Below, in pieces: positions 19,224 to 60,925 of a DNA stretch of 64,000 nt. How positions within the stretch are numbered: position 1 is the first letter of the stretch; every line of letters begins with the position of its first letter. The notes below the pieces were generated by a model. It had not been told where the DNA came from. It saw only the letters and a program-made list of their open reading frames with translations, and did not search any database. The stretch is taken from IMG/VR virus record IMGVR_UViG_3300038463_000401; one strand, given 5' to 3'. A program made the position numbers and the translations under genes. Source of the DNA: a virus.

Positions 19224-19811
19224 ATGATCCGCATCCTTCTCTCCATCCTCCTCCTGCTCTCCACGACGGCCCGCGCCGACGACGTGCAGGGGATTTTCTA
19301 CAACGCCGTGACTGGACAGGTTTCGGCTAAGACACGAGCAAACGGAGATAAACTTTTAGACCAGACGGCGTTGGCAGCCGACGCGATTTATACGTGCGAC
19401 ATCCTCTCGAATTTTGCATCTGGATGGAGCAGCAGCTCGAATACCTACAACACCAACTCTTCAACAAACAAGTACATAGACACGCTTAGTAGTTATAGTG
19501 GCACTACGTGGACTGCCAAAGTTGCTGGCACCTATCGCGTAACAGCAACCGGATACATCACCAAGACCTCGGGGACGTTCACCACAGGCGATGCTATCGC
19601 TGCCGCCTTTATTAAAAATGGCTCGATTTATGGAACTGGGCAGAATGTCGATGGCTCTGGCGCCGTAGCTACCAACCCGTACACGCTGACAGGATTTATT
19701 CCCATGGCTGTCGGTGACACGTTGATTGTCAGATTGGGCTGGAACGGCACTGGCGGACATACGTTCACTGGCACGGTAACCTATGCCTGCCTCACTGTTT
19801 CACGTCTTTAA
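19224..19811 (+). CDS. Signal-peptide protein with C1q-like/fibre-tip domain
   Basis: GGGAG RBS then ATG 19224 (MIRILLSILLLLSTTARA); WTAKVAGTYRV is C1q-like. Confidence 0.7.
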   Translation: MIRILLSILLLLSTTARADDVQGIFYNAVTGQVSAKTRANGDKLLDQTALAADAIYTCDILSNFASGWSSSSNTYNTNSSTNKYIDTLSSYSGTTWTAKVAGTYRVTATGYITKTSGTFTTGDAIAAAFIKNGSIYGTGQNVDGSGAVATNPYTLTGFIPMAVGDTLIVRLGWNGTGGHTFTGTVTYACLTVSRL

Positions 19812-19906
19812 TTGAGGTGACTATGAACCGCATCCTAATCCTATGCCTGCCTCACTGTTTCACGTCTTTAATTAAGGAGCACCCATGAACCGCATCCTAA
19901 TCCTAT
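19780..19906 (+). repeat. Interleaved direct repeats (34 bp at period 60; 22 bp at period 62) across a gene boundary
   Basis: CCTATGCCTGCCTCACTGTTTCACGTCTTTAATT at 19780 and 19840; ATGAACCGCATCCTAATCCTAT at 19823 and 19885. Confidence 0.9.
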
Positions 19907-20478
19907 TCCTCGCCATCCTCTCCACGTCGGCGCAGGCGACTGGTGTAGATATCCCTGCGGCAAAAAACCTCACGGGGGGAAAGAGCTGCCTCTATAGCGG
20001 ATCAAGCGCCGAGGTCTGTGCCGCAACGGCCGGTACAGCGCCGAGTGGCAACGTCGTCGGGACGTCGGTGACGATTAAAACGTCAAGCGGCGTGAACGTC
20101 ACGTCCGGGACGCAGGCTTATCCGATCTTCGGATCGGCGTCGGTCCCAGCTGGTGTCTGGTTGCCTTGTGTAAATATACAGATTGTCGATACAGGCACCG
20201 CCACGGTCAACGAGTCAGATGCCATTGGGTTCACTACGGATAGCAGCGCGACGACATGGAGTGACCTAGATCTTACGGGCATCACGAATTCGGTTACGCC
20301 AAGCGTCATATTGGGGGGTGCAACGCTGACAGCCACGCAGATTCGGTGGGGCGCCGGTTCGTGTTTTCCACCGATTACAGTAGCGTCGCCGACTACTTAT
20401 TATTTCAAGTCGATCAATCGTGTGACCTCTGGGACGCTGACATATAACGGATTTTTGACATTCACCCGCGTCTACTGA
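19885..20478 (+). CDS. Signal-peptide fibre-tip-like protein
   Basis: AAGGAG RBS; MNRILILFLAILSTSAQA leader; Ser/Thr/Gly-rich beta domain. Confidence 0.7.
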   Translation: MNRILILFLAILSTSAQATGVDIPAAKNLTGGKSCLYSGSSAEVCAATAGTAPSGNVVGTSVTIKTSSGVNVTSGTQAYPIFGSASVPAGVWLPCVNIQIVDTGTATVNESDAIGFTTDSSATTWSDLDLTGITNSVTPSVILGGATLTATQIRWGAGSCFPPITVASPTTYYFKSINRVTSGTLTYNGFLTFTRVY

Positions 20479-36396: not shown

Positions 36397-39300
36397 ATGC
36401 GAAATTTTGACCCCACACAGCAGTTCGCTGCGATCAAGAAGTCGGCCACTGATGCGGTCAAAGAGATCTTCCCCGTTGAGGGCAAGCTCCGCACGATCCG
36501 CTTGGTAGACGTGACCGTCAACGACACGCTGGATCCGACCGACTATAAGTCGCAAGTCCAGTCCAAGGAGCGCGAAGGTACTTGGGGCGCCCCCGTCATG
36601 GCCGAGCTTGAGCTCGTGGATAAAACCACAAACAAAGTGATCGACAAGGCTAAGGTCAAACTCTTCACTTTGCCAAAGCTGACCAACCGTTTCAGCTACA
36701 TCGTCAACGGCAACGAATACCAAGTGCACAACCAGCTTCGCTTGAAGTCTGGTGTGTACACCCTGCGTAAGCAGAACGGAGAACTCAAGACGCAAGTAAA
36801 CCTTGCGAAGGGGAAGAACTTTGACCTTGCCTTTAACGAACGTACAGGATTATTCACGATCCAAAAAGTGGGCGGCGGCCAAGCGAATATCCCTCTCTAC
36901 CCTGTTCTTACTCATCTCGGTATTAGTCCTACTGGTATTGCCACTGCTTGGGGCTCTCAACTACAGCAAGCTAACTCTAAGGCCGACCCCAAAGCCGTCG
37001 CCCGCACCGAGTCAGCATTCGGGATCAAACCGGGCGAGCTGAAAGACTACCTAGCGAAGACCGTGCTAAACCCTGAGACGACGAAGACCGTGCTAGGCCA
37101 GAGCTACGAGCGCGTCGACGGCCCGCTGCTGCTCGCCGCGGCGAAAGACCTCCTGCAAGTCCACCTCGGCCAGAAGGAGCCGACCGACCGCGACTCGCTG
37201 GCGTTCAAAGAGCTGCACTCGGTCGAGGACTTCATCCACGAGCGCATCCAAAAGAATAAACAGCCCCTGGCCTTCAAGCTTCGCCGCAACGTCGACAACC
37301 TCAAGCGTGACAAATTGTCACAAATTGTGAATCCCGGCGCGTTCCAGTCGACCGTCGAAGGCTTCTTCACCCAAGACGATAAGAGCGCCACGCCTGAGCA
37401 GACCAACCCAGTCGAGATGCTCGCCGGCCAATACATGACGACGATCATGGGCTCGGGCGGCATTGGTTCCGACCATGCCGTGACGGCAGGCATGCGCGAG
37501 ATTCATCCGTCACATTACGGGTTTATGGACCCGATACACACGCCGGAGTGCTACGACCCCGAAACAGAAGTGCTAACCCAAGAAGGCTGGAAGAAGTGGC
37601 CTGACGTAACCAAGAAGGATCTCTTCGCCTGCCGTATAGACGGCGAGCTGCAATTCCATAAAGCTGAGGCCCTACACCGCAGCCACTACGAAGGGACCAT
37701 GTACGGGGCGCAGACCGGCAAGCTTGACTACTTGGTTACGCCTAATCACCGTATGCTCGTGCGCCCGCTGGACTCGAAATTAAACGCTTGGCGTATTGCC
37801 TCTGCCGAAGAGATTCACCGCAAACCCAGAACGTTCTGCACCACACATGAACCATTCAAGGGCAATAGCGACTTCACTCGCTATGCCTTTCAGTACGTGC
37901 CCGGCAGCAACTCCATGGTCCATACAGAGAGTGTGGATATCGGGGACTGGTGTGAGTTCATGGGGTGGTTCCTGGCAGAAGGCAGCACCCACATCTCTTC
38001 GAAGGTGTCTGACTACCGCGTGCACATCTTCCAAAGCAAAGAAGCCAACCCAGAGAGCTGCGCCCGGATTGAGAGACTCTTAAACCGGTTACCCTGGACT
38101 TGGAGCTTCAGCAGCGGGAACGCATACACCATTTGTGGCAAGGAACTCGTTTGCCAACTAAACGGTCAGGGCTACTGCGACACTAAGTTCATACCTACTG
38201 AGCTGCTATCTGCACCCGTCGCCGCAAGAACCAGGATGCTAGAGGCCCTCTTGCGGGGGGATGGGCGCATAGACTCTGTCAGGGCAACCGGGGTTCGCTA
38301 TAAGCAACAGGTGTTTACCACCACAAGCAAACGACTGGCCGAGGGCTTTGAGCAATTAGCCATAGGCCTCGGTTACTCAGTCCGCACTGGGCAATACAAA
38401 GACAAACGGGAAGAGCGATACCTCGACACTTACGAAGTCAGGTTACTACAGCGTCTTACCCGCTCGGCGAGAAAGCACAACAATCGTCGGAAGAGCTGCG
38501 ACTACTTTACTACCCAGTATTGTGGCGAGGTTCACTGCGCCACAGTGCCAGGCGGCCTCTTGTTCGTACGCAGAAACGGCAGCGTACCCATCTGGCTAGG
38601 CAACAGCTCGCGTGTGGGTGTAAACATGCACCTACCCATGGGCATACAGAAAGACGGTAAAGACCTCAAGATGACCGTGCTGCGCCCCGACGGCCGGACG
38701 AGCACGACGATCAACCCGACTGAAGCCTACGAAGCGCGGGTCGCGTTCCCCGGCCAAATGCCCGGCGACTCGCCGACGGTAAAGGTCCAGTACCGCGGCA
38801 AGTCTATCGTTGTTCCACGTGGAACAGTCGACTACTACACACCCGCGCCGTCGGCGCTCTTCTCCTGGTCGACCAACCTGATCCCGTTCTTGCCATCGAC
38901 CCAGGGCAACCGGTCGATGATGGCCTCGAAGATGATCGAGCAGGCTATCGCGCTCAAGCACAGGGAAGCACCGCTGATCCAAGTGGAGTCGAAACCCGGG
39001 TCGTCGTTTGAGGAGAACATCGGCAACAGCCTGGCGATCCTGGCACCGGCCGACGGCGTGATCAAAAAGGTCACGAAGGACGCGTTAGTGCTACGCACAA
39101 GCGAAGGCGACAAGATCTTCAATCTCTATAACAACTTCACGCTCAACCGTAAGTCCTTCATGAACCACGAGCCGCTCGTGAAGGTCGGCGACCGCGTCAA
39201 GAAGGGGCAAGTCCTCGCGGATAGCAACTTCACCAAGGGCGGCACGCTCGCGCTTGGCACCAACATGCGTGTGGCCTACCTCCCCTATAAAGGTCTGAAC

Positions 39301-42300
39301 TTCGAAGACGGGATCGTCATCACTGAGTCCGCCGCGGACAAGCTGACAAGCGAACACATCCACAAGAAGAGCAAGGATCTCAGCGACGCCAACATCCTTG
39401 GTCTCTCCGCCTTCCGTAGCTTCTACCCAAACACGCTATCCGCACAGAACATGGCCAAGCTTGACGAGCAGGGCATCATCAAGAAGGGACAGACGGTCCG
39501 CCACGGCGAAGCCCTTGCGGCTATCCTCCAGCGCCGCGGTGCGTCGCCCATGATCAGCGTCGTCAACCGCGCGCTATCCGAACGCCCCAAAGACGCGTCC
39601 ATGTATTGGACGCTCGAGGACGACGGCCAGGTTATTGACGTGCAGAAGACACCGACCGGCGTCACCGTGTGCGTGAAGACCGAAGAGCGCGCCCGCATCG
39701 GGGACAAGCTCTCCGGCCGCTACGGCAACAAGGGTATCATCACCAAGATCCTGGCCGACAAGGAAGCGCCGCGCGACGCGTCAGGAAAGCCCGTCGAGAT
39801 CTTGCTCAATCCTCACGGCGTTATCACCCGTATCAACGTCAGCCAGATCTATGAAAGCGCTACCAGCAAGGCCGCGCTCAAGGCTGGCAAGCCTATCAGG
39901 GTCAGCAACTTTGACGGCGGGAACAACCTTGACCTTACGAAGGGGATTATCGACAAGGCGGGCACTCCCGACAAAGAGGAGCTTTTTGACCCAACGACCG
40001 GGAAGAGTCTCGGCAAAGTCCATGTCGGTAACCCCTATATCCTAAAATTATTCAAGCAAGGTACGGTCAACTTCTCTGTCCGTCAAGGCGGCCCCGGCAA
40101 TCCTTACGATGCCACAAACCGTCAGCCACTTAAAGCCGGCGGTGAAGAGGGCGCGAAGGCTATGGACGTGCTCACTACGTATGCCATGCTGGCCCACGGC
40201 GCACGCGCTAATCTAAGAGAAATGGGGACGATCAAGAGCGACCAGAACGACGAGTTCTGGAAGGCTTTGAAGTCCGGCCAGCCACTGCCGCCGCCCAAGT
40301 CCCCGTTTGTCTACGACAAGTTCATGGGCTACCTGCGCGCCGCGGGCATTGACGTTAAGAAAGACGGGAGCAAGCTCACGCTGGCGCCCCTGACGGATAA
40401 GCAGGTTCTTAAGCAAAGCTCCGGCGAGATTAAGAACATCCAGTTCTACCGCGGCAAAGGCGAAGGCGAGAAAGAGCCAATGAAGGGCGGCTTCTTTGAC
40501 AAGACGCTCACCGGCGGCTACAAGGGCGAGAAGTGGAACCACATCGAGCTTCATGAGCCGGTGGTCAACCCTGTCTTCGAAGTCGCAGTCAGCAAGCTCA
40601 CCGGCCTCGGCAAAAAGTACGACGACGTCGTCGCCGGCAAACTGCATTTGGACCCCAAAACAGGGTTGTTTAATACCGAGGGCAAGGGCCTGACCGGCGG
40701 GCGCGCCGTTGAACATTTGTTAAAGCAAATCGACGTCGACGCCGAGATGAAGTCGCAGCTGCGCATCGCTAGCAAGGCCACCGGCGCCGCGCTCGACGAC
40801 GCCAATAAGCGCATGCGCTATTTAACTGCGTTAAAAGTTAACGGCCTGAGCCCTGCGGAAGCCTACATCCGCAAGTCCGTGCCGATCCTGCCGCCGGCCT
40901 ACCGGCCAATCTATCCTTTACCGGATGGGTCGATGGGCAGCTCGGACATCAACTATCTCTACCAGCACGCCGGTGTGCTCAACACCATGGCGAAGCTGCC
41001 AGTCATGGACCTCCTCGCCGAAGAGGAGAAGGCTGGAATCCGCAGCGACGTCAACCAGTCCGTCAAAGCGATTGCGGGTCTGACTGACCTGGCGATCAAG
41101 GGCCGCACGCGGGAAGGCTTCATCTCCGAGATCAAAGGCGGCACTGGCGGCCAGCCCAAAGAGGGCTTCTTCATCAGCAAGATGATCTCGAAGAAACAGG
41201 ACTTCGTCGGCCGCGGCACGATCATCCCCGAGCCCGATCTCGGCATCGACGAGATGGCCATGCCCGAAGAGATGGCATGGAAGCTTTTCGAGCCATTCGT
41301 TATTCGCGAATTGAAGAACCACGGGAAGAACCCGCTGCAAGCCCAGGATGAGATTAAGAATAAAACCCCCTTGGCAAAGCGCGCGCTCGACATCGTCATG
41401 GCCCAGCGCCATGTCCTGCTCAACAGAGCGCCGTCGCTGCACAAGTTCTCAATCATGGCCTTCCGCCCCAAGATCACTGCCGGCCGCGCGCTGAAGATTC
41501 CACCGCTAGTTTGCAAAGGATTTAATGCTGACTTCGACGGCGATGATCAACAGAATTTGATAGCGACATTCGTAACAAATGAAGGTATAAGCAATCTGTT
41601 AAAGATTGTAAAGCCATCTTTTGTTACGGAGAGGATCATGACAGCCCGATTTAAGGTTCAACTGCCGACCATGAATCATAAAGGTGAGATTTTATTGTTC
41701 AACTTAGAAGACTTTCCCCATGGAGAGCTTCTAGGCAGCAAAGAAGGGGAAAAGGGTAGGATAGATTTCTACAGGGCACTGCCAGGATTCCATGTTGTGG
41801 CCCACGATGCTGTCACTGGCAGGTTGGATTGGAAGCCGGTGTTTGGTTGGTCGAAGCACTACCAGCGCGAGGTAGAAGTTGTTACGCTTGCCAGCGGGCA
41901 GCAAATAATCACGGATGATGATCCGCGGGCTATTTACGGAATCGCGCGCGGTAGCCTAGAATTTAGCCGCTTCCGCCCTAAAGATGCCACAGGTGTCTTT
42001 GTTCCAAGAGCCTCCAGAATCACTTTAGACGGGGCTCCTATTTACAATGCAGTGCCTTTTGGTGATAAAGAATTGCAACCGCTCAATGAGGACTTTGGTT
42101 ACTTCGTTGGCTGTTTGGTCTCCAACGGGTGGGTTGAGCATCATCTAGAAAAACCTACAGGGAGGGTTTTCCTCGCAGCTAAGACAGAGGAAGTCTCCAG
42201 AAAATACCTGCGCATAGTAAAAGAATTATTCGGCGATCGCCACATTTGTCGGCAAGAGCGCGGGGAGCCTGGGCCAGATGATAATTTCTACGGCGAGGCT

Positions 42301-45045
42301 GTTAAGCACTCGTTCATGTACCATGATCTGGCAGAGGCAATTGCCGCATGGATTGGCTGCGGGGCTCGCAATAAGCATCTGCCCGCATTCTTCTTATCGG
42401 CGCCTAAAGAATTTCAGCTTGGAATGCTTGCGGGGTTAATGGATAGCGATGGCTCAATCAGTGTAAGCCATGGCAAGAAAACCCCCCAGCTCGGAGTCCA
42501 ATACTCTAGCAGCAGCCTACGTCTTCTCCAAGAGATTCAGCTGCTAACTAGAGCCTTAGGTATCAAATCTAGGATTACACCGTTTAAAACCCCGGCTGGA
42601 GAGCCTTTCTGGTATTTAAGCTTTTCCACGCCAGATGCTAAAACTTGGAACGGGCGCGGCATGGTTCATCCTGCGAAGGTAGGAAACCTGCACAATACCT
42701 TTGTCGATGCGGAATCCAATGTGGTTGCCCGTTACGATATTGTGCCGATCTCTTCAAGTCTTGCTAGCCTTATGCGCAAAATATTGGGAGCACCGAGAGA
42801 TGCCAGCCATGAGCATAAGTGCATCTACGCCATTCTTTCCAAGTCTCTGACATCGGGGAGTCTAAGCAGGCAGACGGCTAAAAGGCTCTTCAACTATTTA
42901 GACCGCGCAAAGGTTTGCGACCACCCTGACTTAAAGGTGTGGGAGGGGATCGTCGAAAATGAGGATATCGCGTGGGATCAAGTAGAGGGGTTTGAACGGT
43001 CCCACATCAGGGAAGACGGCTACGACCTGACAGTCCCGGGCTTTGAAACCTTTATGAGTGTTGAAGGAATCATCCTCTCCAACACTATGACCGTGCATGT
43101 ACCCATTAGCGAGGACGCTAACCAAGAGGCGGCTAAGCTTCTGCCATCAAGGAACCTTTTTCAACCTGGGACGGGGCGCCTCATGGTAGCCCCGTCCCAA
43201 GAGGCCCAGGTGGGCCTCTTTTACCTATCAAAGGCGCCGGCCGGCAAAGCGATCCTGGCCAAGATCATCGGCCCGAAATTTGAGTTACCTCAAATATTCG
43301 ATAAGAAGGCTACCGGCGCTTTGCTGCAAAGCATGGCCAAAGGCATGACCGCGCCGGAGTTCTCCACCGCGGTCGCCGCGCTTAAGCACGCCGGCGAGAC
43401 CCACGCCTACGACTCGGGGTTCACCCTCGGTATCGACGACCTGATCGGCATCCGCAAGGACCGCGACGCCATCGTGGCGGCGGCGACCACTCAGGCGGGC
43501 AAAGCCAAAGACGAGGCCGGTGTTGCCGCTGTGAACAAGTCCGCAACTGCCCTTATTGACAAGGCAATAGACAAACGACTGAAGGGCACGAATAACCCCC
43601 TCTATGACATGGTAGAATCAGGAGCGCGCGGCGATCGGTCGCAGCTGCGAAGCATCATAGCGACCCCGCTCTTCATGACCGACGCCCACGGCGGTACCGT
43701 CCGGACACCGATCAAGCGCTCCTATAGCGAAGGGCTCGACGTAGGGGATTACTGGACCAGCATGTACGGCGCCCGCACGGGGGCAATGGCCCGCTCGATC
43801 CAGTCAAGCCTGCCAGGCGCGTTCAACAAAGACGTTATGGCTACGACGATCGACAACGTAATCACGGCCAACGACTGCGGGACAAAGGATGGCGTCACCC
43901 TTCCGATCACGGATACAGCTGATATCCTGGATCGCTATACAGCCGGTGGCGTTCTTGGCCAGCCGTACAACGCCTTGGTCGATCAGCGACTTCTGGCATC
44001 GCTTAGGGCGAGCGGGGCCAAAACCATCAAAGTCAGATCTCCGCTCACTTGCCACCGGCCGAAAGGAATCTGCGCACACTGCCACGGACTCGACGCCCAC
44101 AGCAAGCTCCCAGAAATCGGAGACAACGTAGGCGCGGTGGCCGGGCAGACGATCAGCGAACCACTCATTCAAATCGTCATGAATGCTAGGCACACTGGCG
44201 GCGTGGCCGGCGCAAAGGGCTCTTCTCAGGGTGGTTACCAGAGGATAGACCAACTACTAAAATTGCCAAAGATAGTAGTTGGTGCGGCAGCCTTGGCCCC
44301 CAAGGCCGGCACGGTCAAGAAGATCGAGAAGGGCTTGGCTGGAGGCTTCAACGTTACGGTTGGCGAGACTGTCAACCACGTTGAGAGCGGGCTGGCCTTG
44401 AAGATCAAGGTCGGCGATCACGTCGCGGCAGGTGACGCGCTCTCGGATGGGGTTTTAAAACCCCAAGACCTAGTGCGCTTCAAGGGCATGCAGCCGGCGC
44501 AGCAGTACATCGTCGACGAGCTCCACAAGGCCTACCACGCTGAAGGCGTGCCGATCGCCAAGCGGATCTTTGAGACCGTGGTGCGGTCGCTAGGGAACAC
44601 CACCACTGTTTTGAATAATTCAAAAGATAGCGGGCACCTTCCCGGAGACACCGCGCCTTACACGGTCGTCCAGGATTTCAACCGCAACCTGATCACAGGT
44701 GTACCGCTGGACGAGGCCGATGGGATGACGCTCGCCGAGGGCGTAGGGGGACTTCGGACAGGGCACGTCCTGACGCCAGATGATCTTAAATTGCTACGCG
44801 TTAAGGGCGTCGTCCAAGTCAAGATCAGCCGAGACCCGATCGTGCACGCGCCGTTCCTCAAGGGCATTACGACGCTGCCGCTTCTAAAGAAGGACTGGAT
44901 GAGCGCGCTCGGCTACCGTTACCTTGCGAAGTCCCTCACTGAAGGCGCGTCGCAAGGCTGGAAGACCGACGTGGCCGCAGAGCACCCGATACCCGCGCTC
45001 GCACATGCAGCATCGTTTGGTCAGGGCAAGGGAGGGAAGTACTGA
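36397..45045 (+). CDS. rpoBC: Single-chain multisubunit-type RNA polymerase, beta and beta' fused, with two inteins
   Basis: beta motifs HPSHYG..PIHTPE, GDKLSGRYGNKG, ILLNPHGV.R.N; beta' motifs HIEL, LLNRAPSLH, NADFDGD, trigger loop EP..Q..M...HTGG, and Zn site C..RSP..C......C..C. Confidence 0.96.
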   Translation: MRNFDPTQQFAAIKKSATDAVKEIFPVEGKLRTIRLVDVTVNDTLDPTDYKSQVQSKEREGTWGAPVMAELELVDKTTNKVIDKAKVKLFTLPKLTNRFSYIVNGNEYQVHNQLRLKSGVYTLRKQNGELKTQVNLAKGKNFDLAFNERTGLFTIQKVGGGQANIPLYPVLTHLGISPTGIATAWGSQLQQANSKADPKAVARTESAFGIKPGELKDYLAKTVLNPETTKTVLGQSYERVDGPLLLAAAKDLLQVHLGQKEPTDRDSLAFKELHSVEDFIHERIQKNKQPLAFKLRRNVDNLKRDKLSQIVNPGAFQSTVEGFFTQDDKSATPEQTNPVEMLAGQYMTTIMGSGGIGSDHAVTAGMREIHPSHYGFMDPIHTPECYDPETEVLTQEGWKKWPDVTKKDLFACRIDGELQFHKAEALHRSHYEGTMYGAQTGKLDYLVTPNHRMLVRPLDSKLNAWRIASAEEIHRKPRTFCTTHEPFKGNSDFTRYAFQYVPGSNSMVHTESVDIGDWCEFMGWFLAEGSTHISSKVSDYRVHIFQSKEANPESCARIERLLNRLPWTWSFSSGNAYTICGKELVCQLNGQGYCDTKFIPTELLSAPVAARTRMLEALLRGDGRIDSVRATGVRYKQQVFTTTSKRLAEGFEQLAIGLGYSVRTGQYKDKREERYLDTYEVRLLQRLTRSARKHNNRRKSCDYFTTQYCGEVHCATVPGGLLFVRRNGSVPIWLGNSSRVGVNMHLPMGIQKDGKDLKMTVLRPDGRTSTTINPTEAYEARVAFPGQMPGDSPTVKVQYRGKSIVVPRGTVDYYTPAPSALFSWSTNLIPFLPSTQGNRSMMASKMIEQAIALKHREAPLIQVESKPGSSFEENIGNSLAILAPADGVIKKVTKDALVLRTSEGDKIFNLYNNFTLNRKSFMNHEPLVKVGDRVKKGQVLADSNFTKGGTLALGTNMRVAYLPYKGLNFEDGIVITESAADKLTSEHIHKKSKDLSDANILGLSAFRSFYPNTLSAQNMAKLDEQGIIKKGQTVRHGEALAAILQRRGASPMISVVNRALSERPKDASMYWTLEDDGQVIDVQKTPTGVTVCVKTEERARIGDKLSGRYGNKGIITKILADKEAPRDASGKPVEILLNPHGVITRINVSQIYESATSKAALKAGKPIRVSNFDGGNNLDLTKGIIDKAGTPDKEELFDPTTGKSLGKVHVGNPYILKLFKQGTVNFSVRQGGPGNPYDATNRQPLKAGGEEGAKAMDVLTTYAMLAHGARANLREMGTIKSDQNDEFWKALKSGQPLPPPKSPFVYDKFMGYLRAAGIDVKKDGSKLTLAPLTDKQVLKQSSGEIKNIQFYRGKGEGEKEPMKGGFFDKTLTGGYKGEKWNHIELHEPVVNPVFEVAVSKLTGLGKKYDDVVAGKLHLDPKTGLFNTEGKGLTGGRAVEHLLKQIDVDAEMKSQLRIASKATGAALDDANKRMRYLTALKVNGLSPAEAYIRKSVPILPPAYRPIYPLPDGSMGSSDINYLYQHAGVLNTMAKLPVMDLLAEEEKAGIRSDVNQSVKAIAGLTDLAIKGRTREGFISEIKGGTGGQPKEGFFISKMISKKQDFVGRGTIIPEPDLGIDEMAMPEEMAWKLFEPFVIRELKNHGKNPLQAQDEIKNKTPLAKRALDIVMAQRHVLLNRAPSLHKFSIMAFRPKITAGRALKIPPLVCKGFNADFDGDDQQNLIATFVTNEGISNLLKIVKPSFVTERIMTARFKVQLPTMNHKGEILLFNLEDFPHGELLGSKEGEKGRIDFYRALPGFHVVAHDAVTGRLDWKPVFGWSKHYQREVEVVTLASGQQIITDDDPRAIYGIARGSLEFSRFRPKDATGVFVPRASRITLDGAPIYNAVPFGDKELQPLNEDFGYFVGCLVSNGWVEHHLEKPTGRVFLAAKTEEVSRKYLRIVKELFGDRHICRQERGEPGPDDNFYGEAVKHSFMYHDLAEAIAAWIGCGARNKHLPAFFLSAPKEFQLGMLAGLMDSDGSISVSHGKKTPQLGVQYSSSSLRLLQEIQLLTRALGIKSRITPFKTPAGEPFWYLSFSTPDAKTWNGRGMVHPAKVGNLHNTFVDAESNVVARYDIVPISSSLASLMRKILGAPRDASHEHKCIYAILSKSLTSGSLSRQTAKRLFNYLDRAKVCDHPDLKVWEGIVENEDIAWDQVEGFERSHIREDGYDLTVPGFETFMSVEGIILSNTMTVHVPISEDANQEAAKLLPSRNLFQPGTGRLMVAPSQEAQVGLFYLSKAPAGKAILAKIIGPKFELPQIFDKKATGALLQSMAKGMTAPEFSTAVAALKHAGETHAYDSGFTLGIDDLIGIRKDRDAIVAAATTQAGKAKDEAGVAAVNKSATALIDKAIDKRLKGTNNPLYDMVESGARGDRSQLRSIIATPLFMTDAHGGTVRTPIKRSYSEGLDVGDYWTSMYGARTGAMARSIQSSLPGAFNKDVMATTIDNVITANDCGTKDGVTLPITDTADILDRYTAGGVLGQPYNALVDQRLLASLRASGAKTIKVRSPLTCHRPKGICAHCHGLDAHSKLPEIGDNVGAVAGQTISEPLIQIVMNARHTGGVAGAKGSSQGGYQRIDQLLKLPKIVVGAAALAPKAGTVKKIEKGLAGGFNVTVGETVNHVESGLALKIKVGDHVAAGDALSDGVLKPQDLVRFKGMQPAQQYIVDELHKAYHAEGVPIAKRIFETVVRSLGNTTTVLNNSKDSGHLPGDTAPYTVVQDFNRNLITGVPLDEADGMTLAEGVGGLRTGHVLTPDDLKLLRVKGVVQVKISRDPIVHAPFLKGITTLPLLKKDWMSALGYRYLAKSLTEGASQGWKTDVAAEHPIPALAHAASFGQGKGGKY
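37549..38604 (+). mobile_element. Intein 1 in the beta region (Cys1...Asn, +1 Ser) with LAGLIDADG endonuclease
   Basis: HTPE|CYDPETEVLT...TPNHRM...WFLAEG...LLRGDG...VHCATVP...WLGN|SSRVG. Confidence 0.92.
41545..43083 (+). mobile_element. Atypical intein 2 inserted immediately after NADFDGD, with LAGLIDADG endonuclease
   Basis: NADFDGD|DQQNLI...LAGLMDSDG...YDLTVPGFETF...ILSN|TMTVHVP; removal restores NADFDGDTMTVHVP. Confidence 0.85.
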
Positions 45046-47569: not shown

Positions 47570-47604
47570 AAATTTCTGGGTGCCCCAATATTTTGCCGAT
47601 AGGT

Positions 47605-47634
47605 AAAAGAAACCGACTGGTGTTACCCAGTCGG
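47605..47634 (-). terminator. Intrinsic terminator closing the RAMP gene plus array transcript
   Basis: Perfect 8-bp stem CCGACTGG/CCAGTCGG with a 6-nt loop, followed on the - strand by TTTCTTTT. Confidence 0.85.
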
Positions 47635-47635
47635 C

Positions 47636-48374
47636 CCTTTGCCCTTACGAAGCGATGCCCGACTGGACCTCGCCAGTACGCCTGGACGCGTAGCAAAACC
47701 TCGCCGATACGCAACCTGAGAATACTAGGCCACTACGTGAACTCGCCTCGCCTTAATTTGCCGATGCCATGCATTTCGCTACCAAGCCTCCGCATCGCCG
47801 AGAGGTGCGATACCACACCGCTACACAACTGCGCTGCACATCGCCGTGCCCCAACTGAACTTTGCGGTAACCCACAGTACCTCAACAAAAGATCGCATTG
47901 CAGAACCGCCACTCAACTCCGATTAACTCTGCTTCGCCCATGCCCTACGTCGTCATACGATGCCCTAACTTCACGGTAATGCGCTTTGCCCTCGCCAGAA
48001 CTGAACGGTGCGATGTAAGACTATGCCCTAACGGCAATAAGCTATGCCTAGACATTACCCGAAATGACAGTACCCCGACTCCACCGTGCGATGCATAGCC
48101 CCCGCAGAAAGGGACCGCGCAACGCAGCACCTGTACTTCACAGCACTAGGCTATGCCACTGCAAAACGGATCGATGCTATACCACTACCATGCTGAACTG
48201 AACGGCGCTGTGCCACAACTCAACTCAACAACAGCCTGCTTTGCCTTAACAAAACTTCACGGGATTCGACAGGGCAGCGCCGAAGCTTCGCGTCGCGATA
48301 GCTCGCCTCGCCGTGACGGGACTCGACTCCACGACACCATGCCTTCGCCCGACCACGTGGTGCCATGCCCTGCC
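47636..48374 (-). ncRNA. Non-coding 5-nt-periodic (GGY/NGY)-NN array, putative guide-RNA precursor (VIPR-like)
   Basis: The - strand right after the stop codon reads GGC AG GGC AT GGC AC CAC GT GGT CG GGC GAA GGC AT GGT GT CGT GG AGT CG AGT CC CGT... The pattern persists to the terminator, and no long - strand ORF spans it. Confidence 0.8.
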
Positions 48375-49217
48375 CTAGCTAAGCTTCTGTATTTCATGTG
48401 AAAACATTCCAGCCCCACTCGAGCGCCATTGGCCAAGCCCAACCAGTTCTCCATAGGAGAACATGATTTCCAGAGGAATCCCCGTGAATGTCGGCTCTAC
48501 CCCCTTCTTATACTCGATCGCCTTAATCAACGGCGAACCACTCATTACCTTCAATGTGAAGTTAAGCTTTGCCCCTGCAGGTACGGCCTCCGACTTCGCC
48601 AAACACACGCGCTCACCCTGCGGTGTCTTCGCGCGCAAGGAACGCTGCAGATAATAGATCGAGCCGTCTTCGTTATGCCGGAGATCCTGATCGAACGGGA
48701 TAAACTGCTTCTCGCACCGGACGTGCTGGTTGATCAAGCTCTGCGTATAGGACGTGGAGTGTAGAGGCAAGCCGTTAAGGCGAGGCGTGCCGGCGCGCCC
48801 AATCGCCTCAGCAGCCGCCTTCAGAAAACCGTTGATCATGTGGCTACCAATGCATGGCTTGTTCGTCTCCTTATCCCAAAAGAAGATTGTAGTGCCGGTC
48901 GTCTTCAACTCAACGAGCGTCTCCTTCAACGACTTGAGATCGCCAGCCACCGCGGCCTTGCGCTCATCATCGGTAAGCGTGACGCCCGTCAGCTTCTCGA
49001 GACGATCAATCAGCATGTTGACCTCCGCCTCGCCACGCTGCGCGGAGATCTGAATAGCGTCCAGGTACTTATTGATCTCCTTGTTGACCTGGCTTTCTTC
49101 GAGGATGAGCTTCCTTTCCTTGCCGATGATGTGCTTGTCGTGAACGTTAGGATCGCAGGGGTTGGTGCCGAGCTGGTCGCGGAGCAATGTCAGTTGAACT
49201 TGGAACTTCGTAAACAT
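48375..49217 (-). CDS. Solitary Cas7/RAMP-superfamily protein (Vipr-like)
   Basis: N-terminal QLTLLRDQLGT strand, IGSHMINGFLKAA helix, RSLRA.TPQGERV.LA.SE, and the C-terminal G-rich loop YG..VGLGQWRSSGAGMF; no other cas genes in the window. Confidence 0.82.
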   Translation of the reverse strand: MFTKFQVQLTLLRDQLGTNPCDPNVHDKHIIGKERKLILEESQVNKEINKYLDAIQISAQRGEAEVNMLIDRLEKLTGVTLTDDERKAAVAGDLKSLKETLVELKTTGTTIFFWDKETNKPCIGSHMINGFLKAAAEAIGRAGTPRLNGLPLHSTSYTQSLINQHVRCEKQFIPFDQDLRHNEDGSIYYLQRSLRAKTPQGERVCLAKSEAVPAGAKLNFTLKVMSGSPLIKAIEYKKGVEPTFTGIPLEIMFSYGELVGLGQWRSSGAGMFSHEIQKLS

Positions 49218-49294
49218 CTTAACCCTTTCAGGGAAATGGCAAGCCCAGCCTTGGGAACACCAAAGCTGGGCGTGATGGTAAGTCAGTAACTGCG

Positions 49295-56766: not shown

Positions 56767-56941
56767 GAAATAGAAGCTCATAGGAGAGAGAGAATATTTC
56801 TCAGAGCACATATAAAAATTTATTTCCACATAACCCCCCTTCTGTCCCACGGTCCGCCGTGAGGCGGGAGTTTTGTCGTAACAGTGCGCTATTACTAAAT
56901 AATACACTGTTTTTTTCAAAGTGAGGTCTGGAGGCATTTCC

Positions 56942-59900
56942 GTGAGTACTGCTGAAGAAATAGACACACTTGATGAGGAAAAGGATTACGACGACGAGCC
57001 GCTGCCGCCCGATCCGACGACCGTTGCGAAGGTCCGTCAAGAGTTTAACGAGAACGGAACGATAAGAAAGTGCATAAAGGCTAGGAAATCCGCGTTCGTA
57101 CACAACCTCATCTACCTCGATGGGGCGAAGTTTAGCTTCCTTGGGCGCGAGTACCTCCTACCTATCTATGATAGGAAAGACTCTAGAATCCTTCTGAAAA
57201 CTAGCCGTCAGGTTGAGAAATGTTGTCACGTTAACTCCACAGTTGTCCTCGCAAGTGGGCTGGAGAAGCGAGCTTCCGAGCTTGTGCCAGGAGACCGCAT
57301 TGTAGCTGCGGGCGAGGGATGGCACCAAGCCGTAGACACAGTCATAGTGTCAGAGACCAATGGGGACAAGCCGTGTGTTCGCATAAAGACACGCCTAGGC
57401 TCGACTTTGGAGGTAACCCTCAACCACCCTCTTAAGAAGCTAACTACTTGGATAGACGCCGGTCAGCTGAAGAAGGGCGATAAGCTAGCTGCGCTTAGGT
57501 CAGTCGGACATTTTGGAAAGATCTCTGAACCCCTTGCTCCTCTTCTGGGGCTGATGATTGGCGATGGTGCCATGACCGAGAGCTGTTGCCGGTTCACCTG
57601 CAAAGACCCAACCATCCAGGCCTGGTTTGAGCAATTATACGGCCCTATTAACTTCCATGTAGACAACCGCTCTGGCACAAGAAACTACTATGTTGGCATA
57701 AACTCGCCGGTTATAGCCTATGTAAAGCAGCACGGTCTGTTTGGTAAAGTGGCCTACCAGAAAGAACTCCCTCCTATTTGCTTCAGCTACACTAAGGAGT
57801 CCACGCGAGAGCTTCTTCGCGGGTTGTGGGCTACAGACGGGCATTGCAAAAACGTAACAAAATCTAAGATAGACTTGGTGTACTGCACGACCAGCCCAAT
57901 CTTAGCGCGGCAGGTCAGAATGCTACTGCGCAAGTTTGGGGTGGTCACGGTTCAACGCGAGAACCGGCCAAGCAACGGTGGGCGACTGGCCTATATTATC
58001 CGGGTGGTTACTCGCCGCTCGATCGAGGCATTCCACCGAGAGCTTGGACCAATACCTGGCAAGCCGTTTGAGCTTCCGACATGCAAGGCCAAGAGCAATT
58101 TAGACACACTCCCGCAAGAGGTGCACGGTCTGATTCTAAAGGCCAGAAAGGACAACGGTTCTCATTGGACCAGAGACAGCCTTGGTAAGCTGGGGCTCAT
58201 CCAGCACATGGAATATTGTCCTACTTACGAAAAGGTTTCTGAGCTTCAGAAAGTTGCTAGAAGCGAGGAGGTTCAGAGAGTCCTAGATAGCGATATCATC
58301 TGGGACGAGGTGGTTTCAGTCGAAGACATCGGCGTGCAGCCGACATGGGCGCTTCAGACAGGAACGGAAACATTCCTCAGTGACTTCGTTGTTAACCACA
58401 ACACTACAAGCTTGGCCAATCACCTAGTTGTCCGAAGTGTAGTCAAACCGTACAACAAGAGCCTCTACGTATCTCCGTCCCACACCCAAACTCGTCAGTT
58501 CTCCTCTGAGAAGCTGAAGCCTGCGATAGAGCGCTCACCGTTCATCATGCGGTACCTCCAGGATAGTCAAGTGTCCAGCCAGGTTTTCGAGAAGGGCTTT
58601 ACAAACGGGTCATTTATCTTCCTGCGGTCAGCCTTCCGAAGTGCTGACCGGGCGCGGGGTATCAGCGCAAGAGACTTGTGCTACGACAAAGACGCTTATG
58701 CGCTAACTAGGCTAGGTTGGAAGAAAATCTCAGACATCGTCGAGGGGGATGAGCTAGCTGATGTCAATGACAGTGGCTTGGTGGAGTGGAACAAGCCAAC
58801 TCGTATAATTAGTAAAAAACACACAGGCAGGATGATCTCCTTTGAGCATGGCGGTTTTCACCTACGAGTCACGGATGACCATAGTTTATGGGTAAACTTC
58901 AAAGTTAAGGCCAAATCTTACAAAGAGGATAGGTACGAGTTCAGTAAGGCGTCAGCTCTGTTGGAGGATCGCAGCATGGGTTTTAAGATGACCTGCTCCG
59001 CGTCCTGGCCACTAAGCAACGAACCGCGAACTATTATCAATGGAGTTGACCTTCTAACAAAGGAGTTCAATGCGTTACTTGGTTGGTATCTAGCTGAGGG
59101 CTGTATGTCTTCAGGGTACCCCGTTCTTAACCTTCACGAGAAGGATCTTACTTACATAGAGCCACTGCTTAAGTCTATGGGGTTGAGATATAACATATAC
59201 CCCAACGCGCACAACAAGTCTGGGCCGGGTAAGACGCTATGGGTGATGTCCAAACCACTTGGTAGCTACTTTAAAAGACTAGGTAAATCCTATACGAAGT
59301 TCATACCAAGAGATGTTTTGGATGCTGGCCTATATCTTGATGAGTTGCTTAAAGGCCTGTTCCTTGGGGATGCTTGCTACCATAAGGGGGAGAGGTGGCA
59401 GCATGGTACCCTCCGTACCAGGTCTAAGCAACTAGCGGAAGATGCCCAGGAGGCTTGGTTACGTCTAGGCAAGCCCGCGGCCCTACATACAAGGATGCAC
59501 CCGAACAAAGCCCGAAATCTCAATCCTGATGAGCCTTTTGAACTAGTTCCCATGTATGAGGTTTGCGCCTATGATCTTGACTACATAATCTTTTGGCGCA
59601 GTCAGAGAGACGCTCGGATCATTCCTGAAGAAGTTGTGGAAGAGGATGTATTCTGTTTTACGATAAAAAATCACCGTCCTATCGTGAAGGGCAACCATAG
59701 CTCTAAGCCAGTAATATCTGGGAACTGCATAGATGAGATCCAGGACTTTTACACCAGCGAGATCCCTGTTATCCGCGAGTGTACCTCTCACTTTCCAGAC
59801 TCCACCGAGATCATGGCGGGTACTCCCAAAAGCCATGACAACCCTATTGAAATCTACTGGGGTGAGACTACACAGAACGAATGGCTTGTTCCCTGTTCCT

Positions 59901-60925
59901 GCGGTAAATGGAACTTCCTAGACGAACAGAATATCGCCCCTACCGAGATGTACACTTCTGGTAAGTTGCCACCAGGACCGGTCTGCAAGAAGTGTATGAA
60001 GCCAATCAATGTCCGCGCCGGTAAGTGGATGTCCACGTCACCAGGCAAGTCTATCCAGGGCTACAGAATTCCGCAGCTCATGGTGCCGTGGATTGTCGGC
60101 ACGTTAAGCCAGTGGTTAAAGTTAACGTGGAAGCGTGACAACTATCCTTTTGGTCAGTTCTATAACGAAGTTCTCGGGCTCAGCTATGACTCTGCCTCAA
60201 AACCGGTTACCCGAGACGAGCTAATAGCCTGCTGCAGCGATTACGACCTATGGAACCCCGAGGCAATGACCCAGCAGCAGCTGGCAGAGGCCCGGGGATC
60301 GGTTCTGACGGCCGGGGTCGACTGGGGTGAGGGAATTGACGGGTCAGAGAAGTCGCCCTCTGGAAAGGTACGGAACGCCTCCTACACGGTGCTTACAATC
60401 GGCACCTATATCAACCAGCGGCAATGGGCCGTCAAGCTGGTCAAGAAGTACATGGGTAAGGAGATCGAGCCCGACCACGTCGTGGCGGACATCTGCCGCA
60501 TCGTCGGGGGGCTTAACGTCGCGATCACCGGCGTTGACTGGGGCCACGGCTGGGGCGTCAACAACTCTCTCGTCCGCAAGCTTGGGCCGAGCCGCGTCGT
60601 CCAGTATCAATATTTGCCAAAGCTTAAACAACGGATGAAGTGGGATCCGCTAGGATACCGGTACCATCTTCAGCGAAACTTCATGCTGTCCGAGCTTTTC
60701 TATGACCTCAAGCACGGACATGTTATGTTCCCGAGATGGGCTCAGATTGAGCCGTACGCCAAAGATATTTTATCAGTGTATGCCGAGTATTCTGAGTACC
60801 GACGAGAGATCAAATATGACCATAGGCCAAGTGATCCCGACGATTGGCTGCATAGCCTCCACTATGCCAAGCTAACTAGCGATATTCATTTGGGAAAGAG
60901 CCGTCGGTACACTTTGCCTGAATAA
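56942..60925 (+). CDS. terL: Terminase large subunit with two inteins
   Basis: GGAGG RBS and GTG 56942. Intein removal restores Walker A-like SRQVEK-TT and Walker B DL-CIDE. C-terminal nuclease motifs AGVDWG and PDDWLHS. Confidence 0.9.
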   Translation: MSTAEEIDTLDEEKDYDDEPLPPDPTTVAKVRQEFNENGTIRKCIKARKSAFVHNLIYLDGAKFSFLGREYLLPIYDRKDSRILLKTSRQVEKCCHVNSTVVLASGLEKRASELVPGDRIVAAGEGWHQAVDTVIVSETNGDKPCVRIKTRLGSTLEVTLNHPLKKLTTWIDAGQLKKGDKLAALRSVGHFGKISEPLAPLLGLMIGDGAMTESCCRFTCKDPTIQAWFEQLYGPINFHVDNRSGTRNYYVGINSPVIAYVKQHGLFGKVAYQKELPPICFSYTKESTRELLRGLWATDGHCKNVTKSKIDLVYCTTSPILARQVRMLLRKFGVVTVQRENRPSNGGRLAYIIRVVTRRSIEAFHRELGPIPGKPFELPTCKAKSNLDTLPQEVHGLILKARKDNGSHWTRDSLGKLGLIQHMEYCPTYEKVSELQKVARSEEVQRVLDSDIIWDEVVSVEDIGVQPTWALQTGTETFLSDFVVNHNTTSLANHLVVRSVVKPYNKSLYVSPSHTQTRQFSSEKLKPAIERSPFIMRYLQDSQVSSQVFEKGFTNGSFIFLRSAFRSADRARGISARDLCYDKDAYALTRLGWKKISDIVEGDELADVNDSGLVEWNKPTRIISKKHTGRMISFEHGGFHLRVTDDHSLWVNFKVKAKSYKEDRYEFSKASALLEDRSMGFKMTCSASWPLSNEPRTIINGVDLLTKEFNALLGWYLAEGCMSSGYPVLNLHEKDLTYIEPLLKSMGLRYNIYPNAHNKSGPGKTLWVMSKPLGSYFKRLGKSYTKFIPRDVLDAGLYLDELLKGLFLGDACYHKGERWQHGTLRTRSKQLAEDAQEAWLRLGKPAALHTRMHPNKARNLNPDEPFELVPMYEVCAYDLDYIIFWRSQRDARIIPEEVVEEDVFCFTIKNHRPIVKGNHSSKPVISGNCIDEIQDFYTSEIPVIRECTSHFPDSTEIMAGTPKSHDNPIEIYWGETTQNEWLVPCSCGKWNFLDEQNIAPTEMYTSGKLPPGPVCKKCMKPINVRAGKWMSTSPGKSIQGYRIPQLMVPWIVGTLSQWLKLTWKRDNYPFGQFYNEVLGLSYDSASKPVTRDELIACCSDYDLWNPEAMTQQQLAEARGSVLTAGVDWGEGIDGSEKSPSGKVRNASYTVLTIGTYINQRQWAVKLVKKYMGKEIEPDHVVADICRIVGGLNVAITGVDWGHGWGVNNSLVRKLGPSRVVQYQYLPKLKQRMKWDPLGYRYHLQRNFMLSELFYDLKHGHVMFPRWAQIEPYAKDILSVYAEYSEYRREIKYDHRPSDPDDWLHSLHYAKLTSDIHLGKSRRYTLPE
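57221..58402 (+). mobile_element. TerL intein A (in the Walker A loop) with LAGLIDADG endonuclease
   Basis: RQVEK|CCHVNS...TLNHPL...LMIGDG...GLWATDG...VVNHN|TTS. Confidence 0.93.
58679..59725 (+). mobile_element. TerL intein B (just before Walker B) with LAGLIDADG endonuclease
   Basis: ARDL|CYDKD...TDDHSL...WYLAEG...LFLGDA...VFCFTI...ISGN|CIDE. Confidence 0.92.

What the first reader, a model, noticed from the sequence alone, without database searches (positions are those of the whole stretch)
47605..49217. Solitary Cas7/RAMP-like gene plus a 5-nt-periodic GGY-NN array and terminator: candidate non-CRISPR RNA-guided system
Seen: a 280-aa protein with RAMP hallmarks (G-rich loop GLGQWRSSGAGMF). 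A ~740-nt non-coding tract starts at the first base after its stop, with fixed GGY/NGY triplets alternating with variable dinucleotides, and ends in a perfect terminator. There is no cas1/2/3/5/6 and no repeat-spacer array in the window. Known: Cas7-family subunits polymerise on guide RNA with a fixed nucleotide step. From memory (to be verified), recent work named such loci VIPR and proposed that the NN pairs jointly specify a gapped DNA target in competing phages. Inference: the protein coats units cut from this array and silences targets without a nuclease.
Basis: partly seen in the sequence, partly recalled or inferred. Interest (0 to 1): 0.95.

Follow-up and report, generated by a model that had tools for sequence, protein, structure and literature searches.

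The report
Phage VIPR locus, staggered guide array
An uncultured ~177-kb phage carries a genuine VIPR system, the CRISPR-related RNA-guided DNA silencer first described in 2026 preprints: a lone Cas7-like protein followed by about 25 very short guides written in five-base units. It is a well-supported new example of a known kind, and its targets are still unknown.

Summary

**Protein.** Gene 48375-49217 (minus strand) encodes a 280-aa protein. It has a Cas7/Csm3 RAMP fold (VIA Z 12.7; Foldseek E 3e-6, top hits all Cas7-type). Its family profile aligns with the characterised SUSP1 Vipr (hhalign 89%, E 2e-6) and shares the G-loop GxGxWR.

**Array.** From the first base after the stop codon, 731 nt (48374-47644, minus strand) form a pentamer array that ends in an intrinsic terminator.
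- It is not one continuous period-5 tract. It is 26 modules of 5k+1 nt, mostly 26 or 31 nt.
- Each module starts with a strict GGY (25/25). Inner units are relaxed to NGY-NN, and the last unit has 6 nt.
- This matches the "staggered vrRNA arrays" named but not experimentally confirmed in the VIPR preprint.
- The same grammar, with entirely different NN content, follows the vipr homologues in 12 of the 14 related phage loci parsed.

**Context and targets.** I found no cas genes, no CRISPR array, no tail hairpin, no ribozyme and no conserved accessory gene. Target searches, each with shuffled or reversed controls, found nothing above chance.

**Novelty.** VIPR is published and this scan has already met it on other DNA (74 notes, at least 61 genomes). 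This is a new member of a known kind. Interest is modest, and lies mainly in the very short guides and the relaxed first G.

The parts
48375..49217 (-). vipr gene: 280-aa stand-alone RAMP (Cas7-like) protein, with stop TAG at 48377-48375. Model elements: RRM core, helical insertion at about residues 25-106, thumb beta-hairpin at about 189-212, G-loop 256-270 (GELVGLGQWRSSGAG).
   Evidence: ORF and translation. AF2 model pLDDT 78. Foldseek: all listed top hits Cas7-type, E 3e-6. VIA-align Z 12.7 to Csm3 6ae2_B, with the top 35 rows all RAMPs. hhalign to SUSP1 Vipr 89%, E 2e-6. No Pfam, PHROG, PADLOC or NCBIfam hit.
47644..48374 (-). vrRNA array of 26 modules. Starts (minus strand): 48374, 48343, 48312, 48281, 48245, 48214, 48183, 48157, 48131, 48100, 48074, 48048, 48027, 47996, 47990, 47964, 47938, 47907, 47881, 47850, 47819, 47788, 47762, 47731, 47705, 47674. 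Each module reads GGY-NN, then (NGY-NN) repeated, then NGY-NNN, giving 5k+1 nt. k = 6 in 14 modules, 5 in 9, and 7, 4 and 1 once each.
   Evidence: Parse. Significance. GG at the first unit in 25/25 modules against 23/90 inner units, Fisher p 2e-12. No excess RNA structure, z +0.7. No Rfam family. Invisible to TRF. Same grammar in relatives.
47600..47643 (-). One more GGCAA unit that runs into an intrinsic terminator (hairpin 47637-47610, then a T-tract). It closes the vipr-array transcription unit.
   Evidence: Arrays of relatives L007, L010 and L012 also end in a hairpin plus T-run.
49218..49294 (-). 77-nt leader between the upstream 102-aa gene and vipr. It has a Shine-Dalgarno-like AAGGG 6 nt before the ATG. 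No sigma-70-like promoter and no pentamer repeats.
   Evidence: Sequence.

Best explanation
This is a phage-encoded VIPR system of the 'staggered array' class.

**Proposed mechanism.**
1. vipr and the 731-nt array are transcribed as one unit, from upstream of 49217 to the terminator at about 47610.
2. Vipr protomers bind one per 5-nt unit. Each clamps the G-Y of the unit through the conserved G-loop W264/R265 and leaves the two following bases (NN) exposed.
3. After 5-6 units the G-Y register slips by +1 at a strict GG junction. This breaks the filament, so the transcript yields about 25 short RNPs of 26 or 31 nt. That is about one helical turn of the SUSP1 filament, which has 5-6 subunits per turn.
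4. By analogy with SUSP1, each RNP reads double-stranded DNA with the gapped NNx code (15-18 bp, 10-12 specified bases) and blocks transcription without cutting. The likely targets are a competing mobile element or the host.

**Shown here:** the RAMP fold, homology to SUSP1 Vipr, the array grammar and its conservation alongside hypervariable NN, the operon layout, the viral setting and the absence of cas genes.

**Inferred:** transcription and processing at the GG junctions, one protomer per unit, the NNx rule for this clade, silencing, and the identity of the targets.
For: **Protein**
- Fold.
- The family profile A2 aligns full-length with SUSP1 Vipr (179 columns, probability 89%, E 2.2e-6).
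- The G-loop GLGQWR aligns with SUSP1 GVGDWR. In SUSP1, W178 stacks on G2 and R179 holds Y3 (paper .720927; residue numbering checked).

**Array**
- Array statistics.
- The same 5k+1 grammar follows vipr homologues at 29-60% identity in L001, L002, L006-L008, L010-L014, L016 and L044.
- Guide content is unique in each locus. Matches between different loci never exceed 4 shared NN and are as frequent as in shuffled controls; the only longer matches are duplications inside the L012 array.
- Inner-unit position 1 is unconstrained (A27 C22 G23 T18). This fits the replacement of SUSP1's G1-contacting D177 by Q263, which is Q in 212 of 270 family members held and never D.
- Pooled over the arrays, N4N5 composition fits sense codon positions 1-2 best of six alternatives (r 0.48). 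That is what wobble-skipping guides would give.

**Setting**
- The family is 88-100% viral in the ESM Atlas clusters.
- It was not found in one genome each of 185,579 prokaryote species, by a scan with two conserved peptide patterns of the close clade.
- The neighbouring genes are phage genes: SSB, HU, an intein-bearing terminase and an RNA polymerase.
- The preprint names staggered arrays and YNNNG-type repeats.
Against: **Missing or weak evidence**
- There is no expression or binding data for this locus.
- The staggered class itself was not experimentally confirmed in the preprint.
- Sequence similarity to SUSP1 Vipr is remote. hmmsearch of the family profile gives E 0.3 to PDB chain 36pp_D.
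- For the window alone, the codon-like NN composition is weak (r 0.21, n = 115).

**Departures from the characterised systems**
- Guides of 5-6 units specify only 10-12 bases, far fewer than the characterised 9-16-unit guides. Stable, specific binding by a single module is therefore uncertain.
- No conserved vap gene is present, although most VIPR types have one.

**No target found**
- No target was found under any of seven pairing rules in 270 kb of related phage DNA.
- None was found in the window itself: 4 exact hits against 1.7 +/- 1.3 in controls.
Confidence: 0.8

Rival explanations
1. It is the same VIPR system, but the modules are not separate guides. The transcript stays long, or is cut into pieces of several modules. 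The +1 slip would then be a built-in hinge or stutter in a continuous or multi-turn filament, and several adjacent modules would jointly give specificity.
For: - A single module specifies only 10-12 bases.
- No tail, ribozyme or hairpin marks the boundaries.
- Another agent of this scan read a similar 1.2-kb array as about 15 guides (e1-5812517), where my parse of the comparable L007 array gives 42 modules.
- Module length equals one helical turn of the SUSP1 filament.
Against: - The first unit of every module has a distinct strict signature (GG 25/25, C-rich Y, purine at N4). That looks like a start or processing signal.
- Duplications inside the L012 array respect module boundaries.
- The preprint's legend describes boundaries of individually processed vrRNAs at the 1-nt stagger.
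- Module number k varies from 3 to 9 among relatives, so it is not locked to helical geometry.
Confidence: 0.15
2. The Vipr-RNA complexes act on the phage's own genome or transcripts, as temporal gene regulation, or on RNA rather than on a competitor's DNA.
For: - The locus sits in an early-looking module with SSB and HU.
- No external target was found.
- The closest solved folds, Csm3 and type VII Cas7, are RNA-targeting subunits.
Against: - There is no excess of self-matches in the 64-kb window.
- The preprint found no self-targeting at 80% or more NN match in any system it examined, and showed dsDNA binding for SUSP1.
- NN content is hypervariable between related phages whose genomes are conserved. 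That argues against fixed self-regulatory sites.
Confidence: 0.04
3. It is not an RNA-guided system at all. The tract would be a degenerate CRISPR remnant, a coding or compositional artefact, or a structural or decoy RNA unrelated to the RAMP gene.
For: None beyond the lack of direct RNA data.
Against: - A period of 5 with +1 slips cannot be coding.
- There is no repeat-spacer structure.
- Parse z = 18.
- The array-after-vipr layout recurs in 12 of the 14 related loci parsed, and three of those arrays (L007, L010, L012) also end in a terminator.
Confidence: 0.01

Closest known systems
VIPR systems with staggered vrRNA arrays (bioRxiv 10.64898/2026.04.26.720920, main text and fig. S18 legend; YNNNG-type repeats in Methods)
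   Same: - A lone Vipr RAMP gene in a phage.
- A pentamer array directly adjacent.
- Successive guides offset by 1 nt, with the end of one marking the start of the next.
- No tail and no ribozyme.
- Hypervariable NN.
   Different: Nothing demonstrably different. The preprint gives only a figure legend for this class and did not confirm it by sRNA-seq.

The explicit grammar derived here is my own description, not stated in the text I could read:
- 5k+1 nt modules, with k mostly 5-6;
- strict GG only at the junction;
- relaxed position 1 in inner units;
- Q in place of SUSP1 D177.

The type (I-VII) of this clade could not be determined, because the figures and tables were not available.
Type II VIPR of Escherichia phage SUSP1 (Vipr ALH47069-region gene, L004:28474-29061; PDB 36pp)
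   Same: - RAMP protein with an RRM core, thumb and G-loop GxGxWR.
- G-Y clamped and NN exposed.
- Phage-encoded, with an array downstream of the gene.
   Different: - SUSP1 Vipr is 195 aa; this protein is 280 aa, with a longer helical insertion.
- SUSP1 vrRNAs have about 9-16 strict GGY-NN units plus a conserved 3' tail or pseudoknot, and a vap1 partner. Here there are 5-6 units, no tail and no vap.
- Here G1 is free in inner units, and D177 is replaced by Q.
CRISPR-Cas Cas7 backbone subunits (Csm3 of type III-A; Cas7 of type VII)
   Same: These are the best structural matches (Z 12-12.7; Foldseek E 3e-6). They share the thumb-mediated periodic base flipping on a guide RNA.
   Different: - No CRISPR repeat-spacer array, and no Cas10, Cas5, Cas6 or Cas1-2.
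- A 5-nt rather than 6-nt step.
- A guide made of tandem repeats with only 2 informative bases per unit.

Membership tests
VIPR (Vipr + vrRNA) | Vipr protein with a RAMP fold: RRM core, glycine-rich loop and thumb | tested here: met
   AF2 model. Foldseek top hits all Cas7-type. VIA Z 12.7 to Csm3, with the top 35 rows all RAMPs. G-loop at 256-270 and a beta-hairpin thumb at about 189-212.
VIPR (Vipr + vrRNA) | Sequence homology to a characterised Vipr (SUSP1) | tested here: met
   hhalign of the 81-sequence family profile against SUSP1 Vipr gives probability 89%, E 2.2e-6, over 179 columns. hmmsearch gives 12-13 bits over the G-loop region. The relationship is remote but full-length.
VIPR (Vipr + vrRNA) | Adjacent tandem pentanucleotide repeats GGY/NN or a related consensus, at least 4 units | tested here: met
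   141 units, 121 with G-Y in register, parse z = 18. The array begins at the base after the vipr stop codon.
VIPR (Vipr + vrRNA) | Conserved GY scaffold with hypervariable NN across related loci | tested here: met
   The same grammar appears in L001, L002, L006-L008, L010-L014, L016 and L044. No guide is shared between loci beyond chance.
VIPR (Vipr + vrRNA) | Non-CRISPR context: no cas genes, no repeat-spacer array | tested here: met
   Searches cover the whole window. Searches scanned 15 ORFs against Pfam (five flank the vipr gene), and none is a cas gene. Not every small ORF of the window was scanned.
VIPR (Vipr + vrRNA) | Viral or proviral genome (typical, not obligatory) | tested here: met
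   Uncultured phage, with a contig of 177,025 bp carrying the protein. Phage genes lie around it. The family is at least 88% viral in the Atlas clusters.
VIPR (Vipr + vrRNA) | vap accessory gene next to vipr (typical of six of the seven types) | tested here: inconclusive
   The upstream 102-aa gene has no family hit. HU and SSB lie further upstream. Neighbours are not conserved in L001, L002, L007 or L010. This is compatible with a vap-less type.
VIPR (Vipr + vrRNA) | vrRNAs expressed and co-purifying with Vipr | not testable with these tools
   Needs sRNA-seq or RIP.
VIPR (Vipr + vrRNA) | dsDNA recognition by the NN code with a 1-nt skip | tested here: inconclusive
   - No enrichment under any of seven rules.
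- No self-targets.
- NN composition is codon-1/2-like when pooled (r 0.48) but weak for the window alone.
- Long guides of relatives gave in-frame hits, but a reversed-order control gave 10 hits.
Type II (SUSP1-like) VIPR | vrRNAs of 9-16 strict GGY-NN repeats capped by a conserved structured 3' tail | tested here: not met
   Modules have 5-6 units. There is no tail, no excess structure (z +0.7) and no Rfam hit. SUSP1 vrRNAs are shown for comparison.
CRISPR-Cas class 1 effector (type III/VII Cas7) | CRISPR repeat-spacer array and partner Cas subunits (Cas10/Cas5/Cas6/Cas14) | tested here: not met
   Only the fold is shared.

The most novel reading that the evidence does not exclude
In the large 'GxGQWR' Vipr clade to which this protein belongs, guides would be defined purely by phase. 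A strict GG junction would nucleate a filament, a +1 register slip 5-6 units later would terminate it, and no tail or nuclease signal would be needed. The first G of the GGY triplet would no longer be read (SUSP1 D177 replaced by Q). The resulting one-turn RNPs would specify only 10-12 bases, so they would have to work cooperatively, with about 25 guides converging on one element, or use a pairing rule not yet described. That would be a distinct assembly and termination logic within VIPR, and a natural minimal guide length.
Probability: 0.25. Interest if true: 0.55.

Novelty: new member of a known kind. Interest (0 to 1): 0.33.

Why it matters
VIPR is a very recent discovery, and only SUSP1-type (type II) systems are mechanistically characterised. 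This locus is a clean, compact example (1.6 kb, one protein, no accessory gene) of the staggered class that the preprint predicted but did not verify.

It has about 25 guides of only 5-6 units. It could therefore serve directly to test three things:
- how short a VIPR guide can be;
- how filaments are started and stopped without a tail;
- whether the D-to-Q change in the G-loop relaxes recognition of the first G.

It does not change what is known about the kind of system.

Tried and rejected
1. **Fixed period 5.** There is no global phase (z 0.2). I replaced it with a register-tracking parse.
2. **TRF and Rfam on the array.** Nothing found, including no hammerhead ribozymes.
3. **Sequence-library hits for the protein.** Pfam, PHROGs, PADLOC and NCBIfam gave none. 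Single-sequence phmmer against the PDB gave only a chance hit.
4. **Seven pairing rules.** NN, NNx, NNxx, NNxxx, NNN, NNNx and NNNxx were tested with 173 guides from nine arrays against 270 kb of related phage DNA. The only excess came from the arrays matching themselves.
5. **Self-targets in the window.** Not above shuffled controls.
6. **IMG/VR scans with 9-unit guides of relatives.** The window's own guides are too short for the tool's 14-base minimum.
   - The L012 and L006 guides gave 0 hits.
   - The L008 guide gave one in-frame gene on two related contigs, but the other L008 guides do not converge there.
   - The L007 guide gave 23 in-frame hits spelling K-E/D-D/E-A-I/M-Q/H-K/N-Q-S/R, mostly one redundant marine phage family. 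Its reversed-order control gave 10 hits.
   - I therefore do not count any of these as targets.
7. **Contiguous-triplet reading (N4 N5 N1').** No hits. In the two putative relative targets, N1 matched the wobble base in 1 of 17 positions.
8. **Host inference.** A genome-contig scan with two conserved peptide patterns of the close clade found no prophage relatives, and no whole genome is held for the window.
9. **D versus Q correlation with G1 strictness.** Not testable. None of the 270 family members in hand has D, so SUSP1 is the only D-type example.
10. **Thumb residue R138.** Equating SUSP1 R138 with a residue here was rejected, because the alignment in that region is unreliable.

Full report
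**What is there**

The minus strand of 47600-49294 holds a compact unit.
- A 77-nt leader carries an AAGGG ribosome-binding site.
- A 280-aa ORF runs from 49217 to 48375.
- From the very next base, a 731-nt non-coding tract runs from 48374 to 47644.
- One further GGCAA unit follows and runs into an intrinsic terminator. The hairpin lies at 47637-47610, with core CCGACTGG/CCAGTCGG, followed by TTTCTTTT.

The same sequence, base for base, occurs in contigs from two other sequencing runs, so it is not an assembly artefact. The window belongs to an uncultured phage. The protein lies on a contig of 177,025 bp. The neighbours are SSB, HU, a giant intein-bearing RNA polymerase and an intein-bearing terminase. 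No whole genome is held for the window.

**The array**

Lag-5 autocorrelation is 0.417 against about 0.23 at neighbouring lags, with echoes at lags 10, 15/16, 21 and 26. Folding the tract at a fixed period of 5 gives no signal (z 0.2). Periods of 26 and 31 do give signal (z 8.8 and 11.5). A register-tracking parse explains why.
- The tract consists of 26 modules, each 5k+1 nt long. k is 6 in 14 modules, 5 in 9, and 7, 4 and 1 once each.
- A module reads GGY-NN, then NGY-NN units, then a last unit of 6 nt.
- The only steps used are 5 nt (115 times) and 6 nt (25 times). Shuffles and flanking control regions use 3-7 nt steps.
- G-Y is in register in 121 of 141 units. The parse score is 18 sd above shuffles.
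- Position 1 is G in 25 of 25 first units but unconstrained in inner units (A27 C22 G23 T18; Fisher p 2e-12).

An equivalent description is (G-Y-N-N-N)k followed by G. The junction GG is then the last G of one frame abutting the first G of the next, one base out of phase. [quoted passage not shown] It also matches the 'YNNNG' repeat variant named in the preprint's Methods.

The RNA has no excess secondary structure (z +0.7). It matches no Rfam family and contains no hammerhead. TRF does not see it. No second array exists in the window.

**The protein**

No sequence library names it. It has 245 close and 871 more distant cluster-level relatives. In the ESM Atlas these are almost all viral. A scan of one genome each of 185,579 prokaryote species with two conserved peptide patterns of the close clade found none.

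An AlphaFold model built on 37 homologues has mean pLDDT 78, with a confident core. It matches only RAMPs at the top of both structure searches.
- Foldseek: E 3e-6 to type VII Cas7 and Csm3, with 101 hits at E of 1e-3 or better.
- Foldseek-independent search: Z 12.7 to Csm3 6ae2_B, and the first 35 rows are all RAMPs.

An 81-sequence family profile aligns end to end with the characterised SUSP1 Vipr, taken from KT454805. The alignment has probability 89% and E 2.2e-6 over 179 columns.

The G-loop GLGQWR aligns with SUSP1 GVGDWR. According to the structure preprint, W178 stacks on G2, R179 holds Y3, and D177 together with H17 reads G1 (numbering verified).
- Here W264 and R265 are nearly invariant across the family.
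- D177 is replaced by Q263. That position is Q in 212 of 270 family members held and never D.
- The H17 region falls in an alignment gap.

I infer, but have not shown, that this explains why G1 is free in inner units.

**Conservation of the grammar**

Downstream of vipr homologues at 29-60% identity, the same 5k+1 modules appear, with a strict GG start and relaxed inner position 1. This holds in L001, L002, L006, L007 (42 modules, 1.2 kb), L008, L010-L014, L016 and the human-gut phage L044. Three of these arrays (L007, L010, L012) also end in a hairpin plus T-run.

L005 and L045 showed no array immediately downstream. k ranges from 3 to 9 among relatives.

Guide content is unique to each locus. 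Only duplications inside the L012 array exceed shuffled controls. So the scaffold is conserved and NN is hypervariable, which is the defining VIPR pattern.

**What it is**

VIPR systems are published. They consist of a lone RAMP protein plus vrRNAs of GGY/NN pentamers. They are mostly in phages. They read dsDNA with NN, skip one base (usually the codon wobble position), and silence transcription. Seven types and several array architectures are described, including staggered arrays, which were not confirmed by sRNA-seq.

Every criterion I could test on sequence is met (see the membership table). The locus is not SUSP1-like (type II). It has no tail and no vap partner, its guides are shorter, and G1 is relaxed. 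Its type could not be assigned because the figures and supplementary tables are not held.

This scan has met VIPR loci before on other DNA, with 74 notes in at least 61 genomes. Several of those were also read as staggered arrays. None overlapped this protein by sequence.

**Mechanism proposed**

The locus is co-transcribed. One Vipr protomer binds per unit. The filament starts at the GG junction and stops when the register slips +1. This yields about 25 RNPs of 26 or 31 nt, roughly one helical turn of the SUSP1 filament, which has six subunits per turn when free and five on DNA. Each RNP then reads DNA with the gapped NNx code and silences transcription.

Only the sequence-level parts are shown. 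Processing, stoichiometry, the pairing rule and the targets are inferred. A single module specifies only 10-12 bases. So either many guides converge on one element, as the preprint reports for SUSP1 and P. fulva, or modules act jointly (rival 1).

**Targets**

- Seven pairing rules tested on 270 kb of related phage DNA gave no enrichment.
- The window has no excess of self-matches.
- Pooled N4N5 composition fits sense codon positions 1-2 best (r 0.48). For the window alone this is weak (r 0.21).
- The window's guides are too short for the collection scans, so I tested four 9-unit guides of relatives. Two gave nothing.
- One matched a single gene in frame, on two related contigs, with no convergence of its sister guides.
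- One gave 23 in-frame hits to a K-E-D-A-I-Q-K-Q-S-like motif. Its reversed-order control gave 10 hits (the other control gave 0).

I therefore claim no target.

**Verdict**

This is a real VIPR locus of the staggered class. It is a new member of a known kind and a good experimental handle on short, tail-less guides. It is not a new system.

Noticed in passing
L001:6800-7435 (+), contig logan:SRR21686410_10496: In the closest relative (Vipr 60% identical), a 211-aa HNH-domain gene sits between vipr and its staggered array. It gives a weak hit to the HNH region of IscB (37.8 bits, far below the family cut-off of 175 bits). It could be a homing endonuclease insertion or a nuclease-type vap.
   Followed up: partly
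L002:6001-6798 (+) and 7850-8674 (-), contig ena:ERZ25039529:contig_86640: One 152-kb phage contig carries two convergent vipr paralogues (P0007 and P0046, both with GLGQWR). Only the first has a pentamer array downstream. The roughly 480 nt after the second is not pentamer-periodic.
   Followed up: partly
window 56921-60925 (+): The large terminase subunit (GpA_ATPase) is interrupted by an intein with a LAGLIDADG homing endonuclease. This is a second intein-bearing gene besides the RNA polymerase at 36397-45045.
   Followed up: no
window 19780-19910 (+): Two near-identical tandem copies of a roughly 60-nt unit, seen as a 38-nt and a 26-nt repeat at 97% and 96% identity. The region was not examined further.
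   Followed up: no
L044 (MT835520.1 22084-27554, human gut phage), locus 2990-3550: A distant Vipr relative (29% identity) has a staggered array whose modules end in a recurrent last unit (AGCTAT / GGCAAC / AGCAAC / CGCAAT). Its conserved dinucleotide is G-C or G-A rather than G-Y. This hints at clade-specific 3' junction signals.
   Followed up: no
L021-L043, e.g. L023:2872-4071 (+): A nine-residue motif K-E-D-A-I-Q-K-Q-S recurs in marine phage proteins with otherwise different flanks and lengths (about 400 to 1291 aa). In L023 the gene lies between the portal gene and a virion structural gene. It may be a conserved functional peptide of scaffold-like proteins.
   Followed up: partly
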